Positions 14,783 to 18,433 of a DNA stretch of 64,000 nucleotides are shown here, piece after piece. The DNA is taken from assembly GCA_043814985.1 (NCBI GenBank), contig JBDRJK010000001.1:28083-92082 (forward strand). Reading direction: 5' to 3'. Within the stretch, counting starts at the first letter, position 1. Every line of letters begins with the position of its first letter. A program made the translations under genes and the position numbers. Under the pieces are notes generated by a model. It had not been told where the DNA came from and made no database searches. It saw only the letters and a program-made list of their open reading frames with translations. This DNA is from Candidatus Aenigmatarchaeota archaeon. Its GTDB lineage: Archaea; Aenigmatarchaeota; Aenigmatarchaeia; Aenigmatarchaeales; Aenigmatarchaeaceae.

Positions 14783-16366
14783 ATGGCAGATAATTCGAAA
14801 AACGCAACAGAACTGGGAAAAAGTCTGAAAGAAATATCTGTGGCCGAATTCTTCGAGAAGAACAGGCACTTGTTGGGTTATGACAACCCTACAAAGGCAT
14901 TGCTGACCATTGTAAAGGAGACAGTAGACAATTCAATTGATGCTTGCGAAGAAGCAGGCATACTTCCTGACATAAAGGTTACTATAAAGCAGATTGGAGA
15001 CAGCAGATACCGCTTAAAGGTCGAAGATAATGGCCCTGGAATAATTGAAGAGAAGCTTTCCCTAGCTTTTGGCAAGTTCCTTTACGGAAGCAAGTTCCAC
15101 AGATTAAGGCAGGCAAGAGGTACACAGGGCATTGGAGTTGCAGGAGCCATCTTATATTCTCAATTAACAACAGGAAAACCAGTTAAAATATCATCAAGTA
15201 TAGGAAATGAGATTACAGACCTTGTCTTGATGCTTGATGTTATCAAAAACGAACCTCACATAATATCTTCTACTAAATCAAAAAACCCCAACAAGTGGCA
15301 TGGCATAAAAATCGAGATGGAAATGGAGGCAAGATACATAGAAAAGGGTGTGTCTGTCCCAGAATACCTGAAGCAAACAGCAATAATGAACCCTTATACA
15401 AAGATAGTTTACAACGGCCCCAACGAAAAGATAACATTCTCAAGAGCAGTGCAAAAACTTCCTAAGATGCCAAGGGAAATCAAACCTCATCCGCACGGAG
15501 TTGAGCTTGGAATCCTAAGGAGAATGGCAAAACTATCAAAGGAAAAGGACATAAAGAGGTTTTTGAAAAAGGAATTCTCAAGAATAGGAAGCACATCAGC
15601 TGAACAGATATTCAAATTGGCGAAAATCGATCCTAAGAAGAAGCCAATAAATCTTGCTCACGATGATATTGTAAAATTGCACAATGCAATGAATAAAATA
15701 AAACTCATTGCCCCATCAACAGACTGCCTGTCTCAGATAGGAGAGGAAATGATAGAAAAAGGTTTGAGAAAGCAGATAGATGCAGAGTATTTTGTTGCAA
15801 TATCAAGGTCACCGACAGTCTACAGGGGAAGGCCTTTCGCAGTTGAGGTCGGAATAGCATACGGAGGAAGTCTGAACCCGAAAGACAAGGCGGAGCTTTT
15901 GAGATTCGCAAACAAGGTTCCTCTGATGTATCACAAGGGAGACTGCGCAATAACAAAGGCTGTACAGCAGACTGACTGGAGAAGATACGGCTTGCAGCAG
16001 TCAGGAGGTTCCATACCAAACGGTCCTGTGGCAATTACTGTTCATTTCGCATCTGTCTGGGTTCCCTACACTTCAGAAGGAAAGCAGGCAATAGCAAGCT
16101 ATCCTGAAATCGTAAAGGAAATCAAACTGGCGCTTCAAGACGCTGGCAGGAAACTCAAACTTTTCATTTCAAGAAAGAAGAAAAGGCACGAACTTGAAAA
16201 AAGGAAGAACCTTTTTGAGAAATACATACCAGAAGTTGCAATAGCCTTGTCAAAAATAACAGACACGCCAGAAGGGAAAATCAGAAAAGGTCTGGAAGAC
16301 TTATTAAAGAGAGGTACTAAAAATGGCGAAAACGGAGAAGCTGAAGCAGGGGAAGAAAAACCTTAA
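14783..16366 (+). CDS. top6B: DNA topoisomerase VI subunit B
   Basis: GHKL motifs KETVDNSIDA, EDNGPG and QARGTQGIG, plus RFANKVPL. Confidence 0.98.
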   Translation: MADNSKNATELGKSLKEISVAEFFEKNRHLLGYDNPTKALLTIVKETVDNSIDACEEAGILPDIKVTIKQIGDSRYRLKVEDNGPGIIEEKLSLAFGKFLYGSKFHRLRQARGTQGIGVAGAILYSQLTTGKPVKISSSIGNEITDLVLMLDVIKNEPHIISSTKSKNPNKWHGIKIEMEMEARYIEKGVSVPEYLKQTAIMNPYTKIVYNGPNEKITFSRAVQKLPKMPREIKPHPHGVELGILRRMAKLSKEKDIKRFLKKEFSRIGSTSAEQIFKLAKIDPKKKPINLAHDDIVKLHNAMNKIKLIAPSTDCLSQIGEEMIEKGLRKQIDAEYFVAISRSPTVYRGRPFAVEVGIAYGGSLNPKDKAELLRFANKVPLMYHKGDCAITKAVQQTDWRRYGLQQSGGSIPNGPVAITVHFASVWVPYTSEGKQAIASYPEIVKEIKLALQDAGRKLKLFISRKKKRHELEKRKNLFEKYIPEVAIALSKITDTPEGKIRKGLEDLLKRGTKNGENGEAEAGEEKP

Positions 16367-17417
16367 GGAACTAGGTCAGAAAATAGTGAAGGATATTGAG
16401 AGTGAGAAGAATCCCTCAATGGATGTTCCTGTGAGAAGCCTCTCTAATGTTTATTATGATGAGAAGAACAGGATACTGAAACTTGGGATAAACAAGTCAA
16501 AAAGGTATTTCTTCAATGTTGCTCATGTGAGAAAGTTCACACAGACCGCTGAGGTTGCCGCACTGGCAAAGCAGTTGCTTGATGTTGACAAGCACATAAG
16601 TCTGAGAGAGGTTTTCTATGCAATGAGGAGAACGCTTCCCGATTCTGACATAGACATAGTCAACGAGCAGGATGAGTCTAACATGGCCGTTGAAGACTTG
16701 GAGCTGATAACAAACCTTCTCAGAGAACAGCTTCACATAAACGCTAACAAACTAGGAGCAGCTGCGGGAAGAATAGTAATTAAGGACAAGGGAGACCTTA
16801 TCGACTGGTCAAAGCTGGGAAGTGGTGGATGGGCTATCCCCTCCAATGTCGAGGAGATTGAGTTCAAGAAAGTGGATGCCAAGTTTATAATCTACATGGA
16901 AAAGGCTGCTGTGTGGGAAAGACTGCACGAAGATAGGTTATGGGACAAGATGAACTGTGTGATAATCGCATCCCAGGGTCAGGCAACAAGGGGAATAAGG
17001 AGACTGCTCAAAAGAATGAATCAGGAACTGAAACTTCCTGTTTATATCTTGACAGATTTCGACCCATGGGGGATTTACATATATTCTGTCATCAAGACAG
17101 GTTCAATATCATTGGCCCACATATCAGAAAGACTGGCAATACCTGACGCGAAATTCCTTGGGTTATCAGGGGATGACATAATAAAGTATGGCCTGAAAAA
17201 ACACATAATAAAATTCAAGGATGTTGACATTAAGAGAATAAAGCAAATTTCCAACTACGAGTGGTTCAAGGACAAGAAAGAATGGAAAAGGCAGTTCAAA
17301 CTGATGATGGACATGAAGGGGAAGGTGGAACTAGACGCCCTAGTTTCCAAGGGAATAACATTCACTTCTGACGTATACATACCAGAAAAAATTAAAAACA
17401 AAGAATTTATTGACTAA
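16323..17417 (+). CDS. top6A: DNA topoisomerase VI subunit A
   Basis: LREVFY (catalytic Tyr), EKAAV, and the TDFDPWG TOPRIM motif. Confidence 0.98.
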   Translation: MAKTEKLKQGKKNLKELGQKIVKDIESEKNPSMDVPVRSLSNVYYDEKNRILKLGINKSKRYFFNVAHVRKFTQTAEVAALAKQLLDVDKHISLREVFYAMRRTLPDSDIDIVNEQDESNMAVEDLELITNLLREQLHINANKLGAAAGRIVIKDKGDLIDWSKLGSGGWAIPSNVEEIEFKKVDAKFIIYMEKAAVWERLHEDRLWDKMNCVIIASQGQATRGIRRLLKRMNQELKLPVYILTDFDPWGIYIYSVIKTGSISLAHISERLAIPDAKFLGLSGDDIIKYGLKKHIIKFKDVDIKRIKQISNYEWFKDKKEWKRQFKLMMDMKGKVELDALVSKGITFTSDVYIPEKIKNKEFID

Positions 17418-17493
17418 TTTCTATAAAATATTTTTATTTTATTTTTGCGTAAAAAAGACATAACTATAAATATCAAAAAATTATAATTTAAAT

Positions 17494-17518
17494 TACGAAA
17501 TAAAAAAATTATTTCGTA
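17494..17518. promoter_or_regulatory. Perfect 10-bp inverted repeat (TACGAAATAA-N5-TTATTTCGTA) upstream of the Lys-rich microgene
   Basis: Read directly from the sequence; lies between AT-rich TATA-like boxes and the GAGGTG RBS. Confidence 0.6.
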
Positions 17519-17549
17519 TTATTTTATAAAAAAAATTGAGGTGTAAAAA

Positions 17550-17627
17550 ATGGCAGCAAAAAGGAAAGCAGCAAAGAAGAAAGTAACAAAGAAAAAGACA
17601 ACAAAAAAGAAAAAAACCAAAAGATAG
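17550..17627 (+). CDS. 25-aa Lys-rich microprotein MAAKRKAAKKKVTKKKTTKKKKTKR (histone-H1-tail-like)
   Basis: GAGGTG RBS before the ATG, tandem stops TAG TAA, its own promoter-like region and a downstream terminator; below the ORF-track size cutoff. Confidence 0.75.
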   Translation: MAAKRKAAKKKVTKKKTTKKKKTKR

Positions 17628-17644
17628 TAAATAAATTGCCTGAG

Positions 17645-17697
17645 AAAACGATGATGGCGTTTTTATTTTTTCGAACTTTCTTTCTTTAAATTTTTAT
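17645..17697 (+). terminator. Hairpin plus oligo-T terminator
   Basis: AAAACG-atgatgg-CGTTTT followed by long T tracts. Confidence 0.55.
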
Positions 17698-17740
17698 TAT
17701 CAGCTCATTCTAAAACCGGATTCAAAACAGCACTAAAAGG

Positions 17741-17748
17741 TTTAAATA
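17741..17748 (+). promoter_or_regulatory. TATA box for tRNA-Phe
   Basis: TTTAAATA preceded by a purine-rich BRE-like AAAAGG, about 24-31 nt upstream of the tRNA 5' end. Confidence 0.65.
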
Positions 17749-17771
17749 TTATAATCCTTTATCAATTTGTA

Positions 17772-17845
17772 GGGGCAGTAGCTCAGCCTGGGAGAGCGCA
17801 CGGCTGAAGACCGTGATGTCGCGTGTTCAAATCACGCCTGTCCCA
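17772..17845 (+). tRNA. trnF: tRNA-Phe(GAA), no intron, CCA not encoded
   Basis: Acceptor stem GGGGCAG/CTGTCCC, anticodon arm CACGG-CTGAAGA-CCGTG, T arm GCGTG-TTCAAAT-CACGC. Confidence 0.97.
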
Positions 17846-17881
17846 CTTATTTTTTAATCTTTAAAATCCAATTTTTAGTAT

Positions 17882-18433
17882 ATGTTTCTTCGTATAGTGC
17901 CGGTCAGCAACATAGCCCAGGGCATATTGGACAAGGTACGAAACGACCTGGAGAGCAACCTGAACATAAAGTGCAGGATAATGCCGGGACTCCAGCTTCC
18001 CGAGGGCTCATTCAACAGGTGGAGAAAGCAGTACAATGCAGAAGTGATACTCAGTCTGCTGTCTGAAAAGTCAGCAGTCAAGTTCATAGACAAGAACATC
18101 CCGACCTTACTGATAACTGACGTTGACCTCTATTACGGTGGCCTGAACTTCGTTTTCAGCCTGGAATATCCTGCAAAGAGCTCTGCCATTGTCTCTATCA
18201 CAAGACTGAGACCAGAGTTCTACGACGAGAGAGCCAACATGAACCTTCTCGGTGATAGGACTGTCAAGGAGGTCATACATGAGATAGGGCACCATCTCAG
18301 CTTGGGGCACTGCTGCAACACATGGTGTGTCATGTGCTTTTCCCCATCTGTAGGAGACATCGACATAAAGCAAAAGTATTTTTGCGAGAACTGCAAGATT
18401 AAACTAATGACAAGAGGAATAAACATAGGTTGA
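17882..18433 (+). CDS. amzA: Archaemetzincin zinc metalloprotease
   Basis: HEIGHHLSLGHC-x4-CVM motif and C-terminal FCENC; RQYNAE-like N-terminal motif. Confidence 0.92.
   Translation: MFLRIVPVSNIAQGILDKVRNDLESNLNIKCRIMPGLQLPEGSFNRWRKQYNAEVILSLLSEKSAVKFIDKNIPTLLITDVDLYYGGLNFVFSLEYPAKSSAIVSITRLRPEFYDERANMNLLGDRTVKEVIHEIGHHLSLGHCCNTWCVMCFSPSVGDIDIKQKYFCENCKIKLMTRGINIG

What the first reader, a model, noticed from the sequence alone, without database searches (positions are those of the whole stretch)
17461..17697. Self-contained microgene for a 25-aa Lys-rich, histone-H1-tail-like peptide next to topoisomerase VI
MAAKRKAAKKKVTKKKTTKKKKTKR has 14 K and 2 R among 25 residues. It has all the signals of a real gene: TATA-like boxes, a perfect 10-bp inverted repeat, a GAGGTG RBS, a double stop and a hairpin/oligo-T terminator. 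It resembles H1/Hc1-type DNA-condensing tails rather than the Arg/Trp-rich eL41. It could be an overlooked chromatin-compacting peptide of ultrasmall cells, co-located with the topology enzyme. Standard annotation would miss it.
Basis: partly seen in the sequence, partly recalled or inferred. Interest (0 to 1): 0.65.

Follow-up and report, generated by a model that had tools for sequence, protein, structure and literature searches.

The report
Polybasic micro-gene with kink-loop RNA tail
A real, unannotated 25-codon gene for an almost purely Lys/Arg peptide sits in front of tRNA-Phe in a tiny groundwater archaeon. It is conserved in related genera together with a kink-turn-type RNA hairpin just after its stop codon, which links it to RNA/ribosome biology and not to the neighbouring topoisomerase.

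Summary
The ORF at 17550-17627 (MAAKRKAAKKKVTKKKTTKKKKTKR; 13 K and 2 R, not 14 K) is real. Three independent metagenome assemblies reproduce it without a difference.

The genome is an 808-kb Aenigmatarchaeota (DPANN) assembly. Thirteen homologous units were found, in 11 genomes of five genera plus 2 metagenome contigs. All share one architecture: TATA box, usually a palindrome, GAGGTG-type Shine-Dalgarno site, ATG or GTG, then 8-33 codons of K/R/T/A, a stop, a K-loop hairpin and oligo-T. tRNA-Phe follows in most.

Across ten units, the 225 in-frame codons contain no acidic residue and no Gly. The other two frames of the same DNA would give 51-52 acidic residues each. This shows selection for a translated polycation.

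It has invariant tandem GA/GA and box D'/C'-like strands, and its closing stem covaries. In the 371-genome pattern scan, which its T-run requirement limited to 8 of the 11 unit-bearing genomes, it matched almost only at this locus.

The topoisomerase VI adjacency is inherited synteny, since top6A-tRNA-Phe adjacency occurs widely without the micro-gene. G000 also has histones and Alba. No database family matches, and there is no expression data.

Most likely this is a translated oligocation whose mRNA binds L7Ae. The function is still inferred.

The parts
17464..17472 (+). TATA-like promoter box (CTATAAATA). A second AT-rich box lies at about 17480-17493.
   Evidence: Read directly. An equivalent TTTAAATATC / TTTTATATATC box stands at the same relative position in relatives.
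17494..17518 (+). Perfect 10-bp inverted repeat with a 5-nt spacer (TACGAAATAA-AAAAA-TTATTTCGTA). It is either a 5'-UTR hairpin or a palindromic operator over the transcription start.
   Evidence: A palindrome is present in 10 of 11 genomes with changed arm sequences (G012 TTACAAACAATT/AATTGTTTGTAA; G017 GAACAAAA/TTTTGTTC). It is unique in the G000 genome.
17538..17543 (+). Shine-Dalgarno sequence GAGGTG, 6 nt upstream of the ATG.
   Evidence: Perfect complement of the 16S 3' end found in G000. GAGGTG, or GGTGAGGT in G012, stands immediately upstream of the start codon in every member (6-7 nt for GAGGTG).
17550..17630 (+). Micro-ORF MAAKRKAAKKKVTKKKTTKKKKTKR (25 codons) with TAG and an in-frame TAA.
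   Evidence: Homologues of 8-33 codons start with ATG or GTG. Over 225 in-frame codons there is no acidic residue and no Gly, against 51-52 acidic residues in the other frames. Three independent assemblies show 0 differences.
17637..17659 (+). K-loop (kink-turn-type) hairpin: TGCC-T-GA-GAAAACGAT-GA-T-GGCG. The 5' strand is box D'-like (CUGA), the 3' strand box C'-like (AUGAUGG).
   Evidence: Same geometry in all ten units examined: a 9-nt loop ending GAU and invariant GA/GA; G017 (aligned) fits it too. The stem is 100% paired and 2 of 4 pairs show compensatory changes. The pattern plus T-run gives 9 hits in 371 genomes, 0 in the control, and 8 of the 9 are at this locus.
17660..17671 (+). Oligo-T tract (TTTTTATTTTTT), the probable archaeal transcription terminator.
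   Evidence: Read directly. A T-rich tract follows the K-loop in all members, within about 10 nt in G001 and G003.
17772..17846 (+). tRNA-Phe (GAA) with its own TATA box (TTTAAATAT at about 17745). It is the usual downstream neighbour and not part of the micro-gene transcript as far as can be told.
   Evidence: tRNA-Phe lies about 70-110 nt downstream of the K-loop in 10 of the 11 genomes, in genera g1, g4, g6 and g11; in G012 (g10) a 212-aa ORF intervenes.
16323..17417 (+). top6A (topoisomerase VI subunit A), the upstream neighbour. The adjacency is syntenic, not functional.
   Evidence: Pfam TOP6A-Spo11_Toprim, E = 4e-58. The top6A-tRNA-Phe linkage also occurs in genomes without the micro-gene.

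Best explanation
This is a genuine, independently transcribed micro-gene of an Aenigmatarchaeota (DPANN) archaeon.

Inferred from consensus elements: a TATA-box promoter drives a short mRNA. Its 5' end carries a palindrome, which is either a hairpin or an operator.

Shown by comparative sequence analysis: a very strong Shine-Dalgarno site recruits ribosomes to an 8-33-codon frame (25 codons here). That frame is selected to encode only Lys/Arg with Thr/Ala spacers, which gives an unstructured oligocation.

Motif and covariation shown, binding inferred: 8-18 nt after the stop codon the mRNA folds into a K-loop, which is the box C'/D'-type kink-turn bound by archaeal L7Ae. Oligo-T then terminates transcription.

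Proposed mechanism (inferred): L7Ae bound on the 3' K-loop protects or gates this mRNA. A terminating ribosome would have to displace it. Peptide output would therefore follow the pool of free L7Ae, meaning the state of ribosome/RNP assembly.

Proposed role (inferred): the peptide acts as a genetically encoded polycation that neutralises RNA, most plausibly rRNA/ribonucleoprotein and possibly any nucleic acid.

It is one branch of a wider, undescribed set of SD-led 'MA(A)KKKK...' micro-ORFs seen throughout the phylum. The neighbourhood to topoisomerase VI is inherited gene order.
For: Coding frame:
- The frame set by SD and start codon has K95 R64 T34 A27 V3 P1 S1 over 225 codons of ten units, with no D/E/G. 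The other two frames give 51 and 52 acidic residues. Nucleotide shuffles give a mean of 43 D/E/G, minimum 27, and 0 of 5000 reach the observed value.
- 63 of the 71 C bases lie at codon position 2.
- The start codon alternates between ATG and GTG immediately downstream of the SD.
- G012 uses CGA/CGG as well as AGA for Arg.
- K/R swaps occur between genera.
- Lys codon usage of 46 AAA to 49 AAG matches the genome's 45:55, and no A-run exceeds 7.

Ribosome-binding site:
- GAGGTG pairs perfectly with the 16S 3' end.

Conservation:
- 11 genomes in five genera of one family plus 2 metagenome contigs share the same architecture.

K-loop:
- GA/GA is invariant and the loop is 9 nt in the eleven units checked.
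- The strands read C(U/C/A)GA and AUGA(U/A/C)GG.
- The closing stem is 100% paired and 2 of 4 pairs are compensatory.
- It is highly locus-specific: 8 of 9 hits in 371 genomes and 0 control hits.
- It is not a general 3' element in G000.

L7Ae:
- L7Ae binds K-turns in archaeal mRNAs and regulates their translation (Daume et al. 2017, PMC5539422).
- It is encoded in 19 of 21 genomes of the family.

Sequence accuracy:
- Three independent assemblies agree exactly.

Wider class:
- SD-led MA(A)K-type tiny ORFs recur across the phylum. For example, MAAKKKKKK (8 residues in G182) occurs in 7 genomes of 2 genera, and lies beside an AlaX-like gene in the five loci where the neighbours could be read.
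Against: - There is no transcript, ribosome-footprint or peptide evidence. The only RNA runs found cover the tRNA alone.
- Length varies fourfold, from 8 to 33 codons, which is unusual for a protein with a defined binding site.
- The ORF DNA resembles an (AAG/AGA)n purine repeat and strongly prefers AGA over AGG (57:3, against 46:47 genome-wide in G000). Some constraint or mutational process therefore acts at the nucleotide level.
- The members are related, so the counts are not independent.
- L7Ae was not found in the G000 assembly or its closest relative G002, where only L30e was found. Both assemblies are incomplete.
- K-loop folding and L7Ae binding are inferred from sequence only.
- The peptide's target is unknown.
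Confidence: 0.6

Rival explanations
1. First reader's model. The peptide is an H1/Hc1/protamine-like DNA-condensing counter-ion of the nucleoid and is functionally linked to the adjacent topoisomerase VI.
For: - The composition (K/R with T/A spacers) resembles H1 tails. The Arg-rich homologue MVRRRRRTTRRRTRKKTTRRRRTTRRRRRR resembles fish protamines (the resemblance is from general knowledge).
- The gene lies directly after top6A in genera g1, g4 and g10.
Against: - top6A-tRNA-Phe adjacency exists widely without the micro-gene.
- In g11 another gene intervenes.
- Homologues of 8-11 residues are too short for H1-like bridging.
- G000 has three histone-fold genes, Alba and a SWIB-like protein.
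- The conserved partner element is an RNA K-loop, not a DNA feature.
Confidence: 0.1
2. The peptide is a lineage-specific ribosomal micro-protein. It would be a functional analogue of eL41/eS32, bL37, bS22 or Thx, lying in an rRNA cleft, and its synthesis would be coupled to ribosome assembly through L7Ae.
For: - Size and charge match eL41 (25 aa).
- The SD is very strong.
- The K-loop points to L7Ae, itself a ribosomal/RNP protein.
- No canonical eL41 could be found in G000.
- L41e is patchy among archaea and often missed (Yutin et al. 2012, PMC3353972).
Against: - There is no sequence similarity to any eL41 chain, including the archaeal ones.
- It has no Trp or Leu.
- Length varies from 8 to 33 residues, whereas ribosomal micro-proteins are length-conserved.
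- It is absent from 7 of 12 genera of the same family.
- The eL41 search in G000 is weak for so short a protein.
Confidence: 0.18
3. The functional product is the RNA. It would be a small K-loop RNA, for example an L7Ae-titrating or L7Ae-delivering sRNA. The polybasic ORF would be a cis-acting 'leader' whose translation, slowed by the cationic nascent chain, only controls folding, stability or termination of that RNA. The peptide itself would be a by-product.
For: - The K-loop is the most conserved element, while the ORF shrinks to 8-11 codons.
- The stop codon always lies 8-18 nt before the K-loop, so a terminating ribosome would overlap it.
- The AGA bias suggests constraint at the RNA level.
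Against: - The strict exclusion of acidic, Gly, Asn and Gln codons in frame is a constraint on the peptide's charge. A mere spacer would not need it, although an arrest function of a cationic nascent chain would.
- No Rfam family matches.
- There are no terminal box C/D and no ACA box.
- No second K-loop RNA of this type exists elsewhere in the genome.
Confidence: 0.15
4. Chance ORF in an A-rich intergenic spacer or terminator region, with no function.
For: - The DNA is T-poor and purine-rich, so open frames arise easily.
- Oligo-A/T tracts are common between archaeal genes.
Against: - SD, start, frame composition, stop and K-loop are conserved across five genera.
- Only one such SD-led ORF of 20 or more codons made of at least 60% K/R exists in the 808-kb genome.
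Confidence: 0.03

Closest known systems
eL41 / eS32 (ribosomal protein L41e; Pfam PF05162)
   Same: A tiny (22-39 aa), extremely basic, stand-alone gene that annotation often misses. It occurs in archaea and eukaryotes and acts by lying against rRNA.
   Different: - No detectable sequence similarity.
- eL41 is Arg/Trp/Leu-containing and its sequence is conserved (MRWKWIKKRIRRLKRQRKKER core).
- This family is K/R/T/A only, varies from 8 to 33 residues, and its mRNA carries a K-loop.
bL37, bS22 and Thx (bacterial lineage-specific polybasic ribosomal micro-proteins; from general knowledge)
   Same: Peptides of 24-33 aa that are mostly K/R, start MAK.../MGK..., and were discovered only through ribosome structures.
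   Different: They are bacterial and have defined sequences with His/Gly/Trp positions. NCBIfam models give no match here.
Histone H1 C-terminal tail, chlamydial Hc1/Hc2 and fish protamines (from general knowledge)
   Same: Low-complexity K/A/T or R-cluster composition. They neutralise nucleic-acid charge.
   Different: Those proteins are much longer (H1 tail about 100 aa, Hc1 about 125 aa) or have specialised expression (protamines). No DNA link was found here, and the conserved partner element is an RNA motif.
L7Ae-binding K-turns in archaeal mRNAs (autoregulatory K-turn of the l7ae 5' UTR; Daume et al. 2017, PMC5539422) and the C'/D' K-loop of archaeal box C/D sRNAs
   Same: - Tandem sheared G.A pairs flanked by a Watson-Crick stem.
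- Box D'-like CUGA and box C'-like AUGAUGG strands joined by a short loop, as in K-loops.
- In mRNAs such motifs couple translation to free L7Ae.
   Different: - Here the motif is in the 3' UTR, 8-18 nt after the stop of a micro-ORF, not in a 5' UTR masking the SD.
- There are no terminal C/D boxes or guide regions, so it is not a C/D sRNA.
- Binding has not been tested.
Oligolysine 'M-A-(K/R)n' micro-genes noted earlier in this scan in other DPANN archaea (unpublished AI notes; leads only)
   Same: SD-led ORFs of 8-20 codons with their own promoter and terminator, starting MA(A)K. The same kind is seen here across Aenigmatarchaeota.
   Different: This branch is longer (up to 33 codons), contains regular Thr/Ala spacers, and is the only one seen with a K-loop.

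Membership tests
eL41/eS32 (PF05162) | Significant sequence match to the Pfam model or to eL41 chains of solved ribosomes | tested here: not met
   Pfam gave 0 families at E <= 10. A profile of 9 members against all PDB chains gave 0 hits at E <= 10, although archaeal and eukaryotic eL41 chains are in the library.
eL41/eS32 (PF05162) | Conserved basic helix with Trp and Leu (K/R-W-K/R ... R-R-L-K-R) | tested here: not met
   No W, L, I or M occurs after the start codon in any of the ten units counted. Compare the archaeal eL41.
eL41/eS32 (PF05162) | Physical residence in the ribosome at the subunit interface | not testable with these tools
   This needs ribosome purification or cryo-EM from an Aenigmatarchaeota enrichment.
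H1/Hc1/protamine-type DNA-condensing proteins | Lys/Arg-rich low-complexity composition with small neutral spacers | tested here: met
   K95 R64 T34 A27 of 225 residues.
H1/Hc1/protamine-type DNA-condensing proteins | Length sufficient for DNA bridging (protamines about 30 aa or more, H1 tail about 100 aa), conserved across members | tested here: not met
   Members are 8, 10, 11, 11, 16, 20, 21, 24, 25, 25, 30, 30 and 33 residues long.
H1/Hc1/protamine-type DNA-condensing proteins | DNA binding and condensation | not testable with these tools
   This needs EMSA or condensation assays with synthetic peptide.
   top6A-tRNA-Phe adjacency occurs without the micro-gene in many genomes of the order. 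In g11 a 327-aa gene separates top6A from the micro-gene.
K-turn / K-loop RNA motif (L7Ae-binding) | Tandem G.A / A.G pairs | tested here: met
   The GA...GA columns are invariant in 10 of 10 distinct sequences, and GA...GA is also present in the two metagenome members.
K-turn / K-loop RNA motif (L7Ae-binding) | Watson-Crick helix flanking the G.A pairs, maintained by covariation | tested here: met
   All 40 cells are paired. Two of the four pairs show changes on both sides (GC/AU/UG and AU/GC). 0 of 500 shuffles reach the covariation score, and slid controls give 5-45% pairing. The helix is short, only 4 bp.
K-turn / K-loop RNA motif (L7Ae-binding) | Box C'-like (RUGAUGA) and box D'-like (CUGA) strands joined by a short loop | tested here: met
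   The strands read C(U/C/A)GA and AUGA(U/A/C)GG. In the eleven units checked, 7 nt lie between the D'-like GA and the AU of the C'-like strand.
K-turn / K-loop RNA motif (L7Ae-binding) | L7Ae encoded by the organism | tested here: inconclusive
   PF01248 hits of 86-106 bits (L7Ae type) occur in 19 of 21 genomes of the family, including same-genus G001 and G003. G000 and G002 show only the 60-64-bit L30e-type hit. Their assemblies are 91% and 81% complete.
K-turn / K-loop RNA motif (L7Ae-binding) | Kinked fold and L7Ae binding in vitro | not testable with these tools
   This needs EMSA or structure probing.
Box C/D sRNA | Terminal box C (5') and box D (3'), with guide regions of about 12 nt | tested here: not met
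   The listed Rfam hits are the tRNA (E = 1e-13) and four chance-level hits (E = 0.5-8.6), none to a C/D or H/ACA family of archaea. There is no CUGA after the K-loop and no RUGAUGA before the ORF (direct reading).
Box H/ACA sRNA | K-turn/K-loop on top of an upper stem, a pseudouridylation pocket, a lower stem and a 3' ACA | tested here: not met
   The stem below the K-loop is only 4 bp. There is no conserved lower stem and no ACA box.

The most novel reading that the evidence does not exclude
Ultra-small archaea would encode their own oligocations. K-loop-tagged micro-mRNAs would yield 8-33-residue Lys/Arg peptides that act as genetically programmed, polyamine/protamine-like counter-ions for ribosomes and other nucleic acids. 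Output would be feedback-set by free L7Ae through a 3'-UTR kink-turn. That would be the first 3'-UTR K-turn switch in archaea and would place these among the smallest conserved protein-coding genes known.
Probability: 0.2. Interest if true: 0.8.

Novelty: new variant of a known kind. Interest (0 to 1): 0.6.

Why it matters
Genes of 8-33 codons are invisible to gene callers. If these are translated, DPANN proteomes contain an abundant class of polycations that nobody has counted. Such peptides could matter for how cells with minimal genomes neutralise and package RNA and DNA.

The K-loop gives a concrete handle that can be tested at the bench by L7Ae binding. It would also extend L7Ae-mediated mRNA control from 5' UTRs to 3' UTRs.

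The analysis also removes a tempting but unsupported link to topoisomerase VI.

Tried and rejected
- **HMM search in relatives.** An HMM of nine peptides run against the relatives' genomes missed known members, because of low-complexity filtering. I replaced it with pattern searches.
- **Family and structure libraries.** Pfam, NCBIfam and PDB profile searches gave no hits.
- **Exact look-up.** Six peptides looked up in the 15-billion-protein collection were all absent.
- **Rfam.** Only the tRNA was found, plus four chance-level hits at E = 0.5-8.6.
- **RNA evidence.** Two metatranscriptome runs hold only tRNA-like words. Laying one of them showed coverage of the tRNA only.
- **Canonical eL41 in G000.** The Pfam hit is an out-of-frame artefact inside a larger gene. 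A regex and tblastn found nothing convincing. The test is weak for so short a protein.
- **Box C/D sRNA, H/ACA sRNA, SECIS-like recoding element.** All rejected, because terminal boxes, a pocket/ACA box and a consistent stop codon are missing.
- **Attenuator of tRNA-Phe.** Rejected. The tRNA has its own TATA box, a Lys/Arg leader has no logical link to tRNA-Phe, and in G012 a homing-endonuclease-like ORF separates the two.
- **Long polypurine/polypyrimidine hairpin capped by the K-loop.** Downstream T/C-rich tracts could pair with the ORF in several members but not in G012, so this was not adopted.
- **K-loop as a general 3' element of this genome.** Rejected. The ten loose matches elsewhere in G000 do not resemble the unit; none is followed by a T-run.
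- **Palindrome as a regulon operator.** No second copy exists in the genome.
- **Metagenome scan with the K-loop pattern.** Most of the 120 stretches were chance matches.
Full report
**Observation.** The window comes from an 808-kb, 21-contig genome. Its closest named relatives are Candidatus Aenigmarchaeum subterraneum and Aenigmatarchaeota MAGs from groundwater.

The following lie on the + strand:
- top6B at 14783-16366
- top6A at 16323-17417
- the 25-codon ORF at 17550-17627
- tRNA-Phe at 17772-17846
- an M54 archaemetzincin, an HD protein and the tRNA-splicing endonuclease

- TATA-like CTATAAATA at 17464-17472
- a perfect 10-bp inverted repeat at 17494-17518
- GAGGTG at 17538-17543, 6 nt before the ATG
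- the double stop TAG-TAA
- a GC-closed hairpin at 17637-17659, followed by TTTTTATTTTTT

The peptide has 13 Lys and 2 Arg, not 14 Lys. GAGGTG is a perfect complement of the 3' end of this genome's 16S rRNA (GGATCACCTCCTTA). Only about 45 of 730 long ORFs have a 6-mer SD of that strength. Contigs from three independent metagenome runs reproduce 17400-17900 with no differences, so the A-rich ORF is not an assembly artefact.

**Conservation.** I searched the top6A and tRNA-Phe neighbourhoods of 41 relatives. I also ran two pattern scans over 371 genomes of the phylum and one metagenome scan. Together these gave 13 units with the same architecture:

| Source | Peptide |
|---|---|
| G000 | MAAKRKAAKKKVTKKKTTKKKKTKR |
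| G001 | MAAKKKAKKTTKKKKR |
| G002 | MAARKRKTKKKTTKKKATKRKTKRKTKRRR |
| G003 | MPAKKKKTTKKKVTKKKTTKKKTAKKSTKKKKK |
| G006 | MAKRKKKKKKTKKKKKKRRR |
| G008 | MKAKRKAARKR (GTG start) |
| G012 | MVRRRRRTTRRRTRKKTTRRRRTTRRRRRR |
| G013 | MAARRRRKKAAKKKTKRRRKR |
| G019 | MAARRRKAKRKTTKKKTTKRRRRR |
| G020 | MAARRRRAKKKTKKKATRKRRRRRR |
| G017 | MAKKKKAKRK (GTG start) |
| L222 (metagenome contig) | MAKRKKKR (GTG start) |
| L295 (metagenome contig) | MKAKRKAARKR (GTG start) |

The 11 genomes belong to five of the twelve genera of one family. No unit was found in the other genera of the family or in the other families of the order.

**Is it translated?** The DNA is a T-poor purine tract, so an open frame alone proves little. 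The frame defined by SD and start codon is, however, under a clear constraint at the amino-acid level:
- Over 225 codons of ten units it reads K95 R64 T34 A27 V3 P1 S1, with no Asp, Glu, Gly, Asn, Gln or His.
- The other two frames of the same DNA would give 51 and 52 acidic residues and three stops each.
- Shuffling the nucleotides gives on average 43 Asp/Glu/Gly (minimum 27), and 0 of 5000 shuffles reach the observed zero.
- 63 of the 71 C bases lie at codon position 2, giving Thr/Ala/Pro/Ser codons.

Further points agree with translation:
- The start codon switches between ATG and GTG immediately downstream of the SD.
- G012 mixes CGA/CGG with AGA for Arg.
- Lys codon usage (AAA 46: AAG 49) equals the genomic 45:55, and A-runs never exceed 7.

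Two points argue the other way:
- AGA is preferred over AGG 57:3, against 46:47 genome-wide in G000.
- Length varies from 8 to 33 codons.

Repeat slippage or an RNA-level constraint therefore also shapes the tract, and the product is defined by charge and not by a fold. No transcript or peptide data exist. The only RNA runs with shared words cover the tRNA alone.

**The K-loop.** In the eleven units checked it has this form:

4-bp stem - N - GA - 9-nt loop ending GAU - GA - N - complementary stem

It starts 8-18 nt after the stop codon and is followed by a T-rich tract. Read as RNA:
- The 5' strand is C(U/C/A)GA, which is box D'-like.
- The 3' strand is AUGA(U/A/C)GG, which is box C'-like.
- The two GA dinucleotides would form the tandem sheared G.A pairs of a kink-turn.
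- The helix on the other side of the G.A pairs is replaced by a loop, which is the geometry of the K-loops of archaeal C/D and H/ACA sRNAs. That comparison rests on general knowledge.

The closing stem is paired in all 40 cells. Two of its four pairs change on both sides (GC/AU/UG and AU/GC), and slid controls pair in only 5-45% of cells.

The motif is highly specific:
- The pattern RCCNGA-N6-GATGANGGY-NN-TTT hits 9 places in 371 genomes and 0 in the reversed control. Eight of the nine hits are at this locus.
- It is not a general 3' element in G000.
- It is not part of a C/D or H/ACA sRNA. There are no terminal boxes, no pocket or ACA box, and no Rfam match.

L7Ae, the archaeal K-turn/K-loop-binding protein, binds K-turns in mRNAs and represses translation of its own mRNA (Daume et al. 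2017, PMC5539422). L7Ae-type genes are present in 19 of 21 genomes of the family, including two of the same genus. The G000 and G002 assemblies (91% and 81% complete) show only L30e.

**The 5' palindrome.** The 5' palindrome is also conserved in position. Its arm sequences differ between genera (TTACGAATAA, TTACAAACAATT, GAACAAAA), and it is unique in the genome. It may be a 5'-UTR hairpin or an operator. Sequence alone cannot decide between these.

**Context.** The link to topoisomerase VI does not hold up:
- tRNA-Phe lies shortly after top6A in many genomes of the order that have no micro-gene, for example at 43-134 nt in G015, G030 and G014.
- In genus g11 a 327-aa aminoacyl-tRNA-synthetase-like gene lies between top6A and the micro-gene.
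- In G012 a LAGLIDADG-like ORF lies between the micro-gene and tRNA-Phe.

The ancestral order is top6A - (micro-gene) - tRNA-Phe - archaemetzincin, and the micro-gene travels with tRNA-Phe. The tRNA has its own TATA box, so co-transcription is not implied. G000 encodes three histone-fold proteins, Alba and a SWIB-like small protein. A missing chromatin protein therefore does not need to be explained.

**Wider class.** The first pattern scan shows that SD-led tiny ORFs beginning MA(A)KKKK are common in the phylum, with about 300 hits against about 100 for the reversed control. Several are conserved across genera. One example is MAAKKKKKK (8 residues in G182), found in seven genomes of two genera and lying beside an AlaX-like gene in the five loci where the neighbours could be read. 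Others carry Cys-rich or acidic tails.

G000 itself has a second type, (GTG)AKKKKAAKAKK followed by a GGGTGCC...GCACCC hairpin. It lies at the starts of contigs C1 and C5, and relatives occur in G003 and G020.

Earlier notes of this scan describe similar oligolysine micro-genes in other DPANN lineages. Those are leads, not evidence, but they fit. No paper describing such genes was found.

**Interpretation.** The best-supported reading is a real micro-gene that makes an unstructured oligocation, with an mRNA that ends in an L7Ae-type K-loop.
- **Shown:** the unit's conservation, the frame constraint, and the K-loop's sequence signature and covariation.
- **Inferred:** transcription limits, translation, L7Ae binding, and the peptide's target.

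The K-loop lies within reach of a terminating ribosome, and L7Ae is a ribosome/RNP protein. I therefore favour a model in which peptide output is coupled to free L7Ae and the peptide serves RNA/ribonucleoprotein charge neutralisation. A strict eL41 analogue, a protamine-like DNA role, and an RNA-only function with a cis-acting leader ORF all remain open and are ranked in the rivals. A chance ORF is effectively excluded.

**Novelty.** Tiny polybasic proteins (eL41, bL37, bS22, Thx, protamines) and L7Ae-regulated mRNAs are both known kinds. This unit matches none of those families by sequence. It combines the two kinds in a new way, with a 3'-UTR K-loop behind a K/R/T/A micro-ORF of 8-33 codons. 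I rate it a new variant of a known kind. It is of moderate to high interest because it can be tested directly at the bench.

Noticed in passing
Outside the window: genome contigs C1:29-67 and C5:29-67 (the window is C1:28083-92082): A second type of polybasic micro-ORF in the same genome: (GTG)AKKKKAAKAKK behind AGGTGAAAAAAA, followed by the hairpin GGGTGCCTTTTTGCACCC. It is present at the identical starts of two contigs. Similar units occur in G003 (MAAKKKAKAAAKKSKKK) and G020 (MAARRRKAKRKTTRRRRRKKKEEEW), each with a GGGTG...CACCC hairpin and no K-loop.
   Followed up: partly
Loci L110, L114-L119, L129 (genomes G172, G178-G182, G199): A 9-codon ORF MAAKKKKKK (8 codons in G182/L119) behind GAGGTG is conserved in seven genomes of two genera. 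In the five loci where neighbours could be read it lies next to an AlaX-like gene, between it and a membrane-protein gene, antisense to the AlaX-like gene. The spacer between SD and ATG varies while SD and ATG-GCA-GCA stay fixed.
   Followed up: partly
Loci L113, L115-L118, L120, L123, L126, L128, L130: Tiny SD-led ORFs with a Lys-rich head and a Cys-rich tail, for example MAKKKKAVKKKTVSKKTGGCCCGSGMKSKDCCGC, MAVKKKKKTVKKDSKASCCGCCK, and others ending ...CEYC or ...CTYC. These may be metal-binding or lipidated micro-proteins.
   Followed up: no
Locus L087 (G049) and locus L068 (G003:C16): A basic micro-ORF sits next to an acidic Trp-containing micro-ORF. In G049, MPAKKKTTKKKTVTKKPKKKKK is followed about 50 nt later by MMEWDDIEEEDLEEDWEDEEGWDDDGDF. 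In G003 the basic ORF follows a gene that ends ...EEEDWEDDEDDE. Several other tiny ORFs end in EEEW or DDDW.
   Followed up: no
Loci L148, L150, L151, L142, L172 (tRNA-Phe of genera g4 and g11): The tRNA-Phe genes of these relatives carry an insertion in the D-loop region (GGGAG-TTTTTAACCAA-GAGCGC). In G017 there are further insertions. ARAGORN did not call these genes, so they are probably introns at non-canonical positions.
   Followed up: no
Genome contig C19:113412-113663 (-), and the family-wide search: G000 and its nearest relative G002 show only the L30e-type member of the L7Ae family, located after rpoA'' and before NusA. The other 19 genomes of the family have an additional 86-106-bit L7Ae. 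The cause is either an assembly gap or a real loss.
   Followed up: partly
Loci L162-L166 (L7Ae genes of relatives): The 5' UTRs of the family's L7Ae genes share a conserved motif, AATGA(A/C)C(C/T)(A/T)ATGAAAnGAGGTGATGA, which overlaps the SD and the start codon. It may be the autoregulatory K-turn described for other archaea.
   Followed up: no
Locus L160, 1651-2289 (-) (G012): A 212-aa LAGLIDADG-like (IIGDGCL...) ORF is inserted between the micro-gene and tRNA-Phe. It is probably a free-standing homing endonuclease.
   Followed up: no
Genome contig C21:60381-60452 (+): Another SD-led (GAGGTG, 7-nt spacer) 23-codon basic ORF, MGKKRSWKTGKSQTKYSREKKKK. C19:141982 has a 21-codon hydrophobic ORF, MSGILIGLVMLLVGIGLIIFG, behind GAGGTG.
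   Followed up: no
Genome contig C13:47553-47696; loci L062, L066, L093: A conserved protein of about 50 aa, MVAKKKPFGGFQIKPDE..KIWQYIK..KLAKK, resembles a minimal SWIB/MDM2-type domain. It is present in G000 and several relatives.
   Followed up: no
Metagenome runs X1 and X3, loose ends at window 17573-17614: The same groundwater and biofilm samples contain a second, related organism with a variant unit (…GAGGTGTTACTAAAAATGCCAGCAAA…, i.e. MPAK…), as well as the G001/G003-type unit. Several strains carrying this micro-gene therefore coexist.
   Followed up: no
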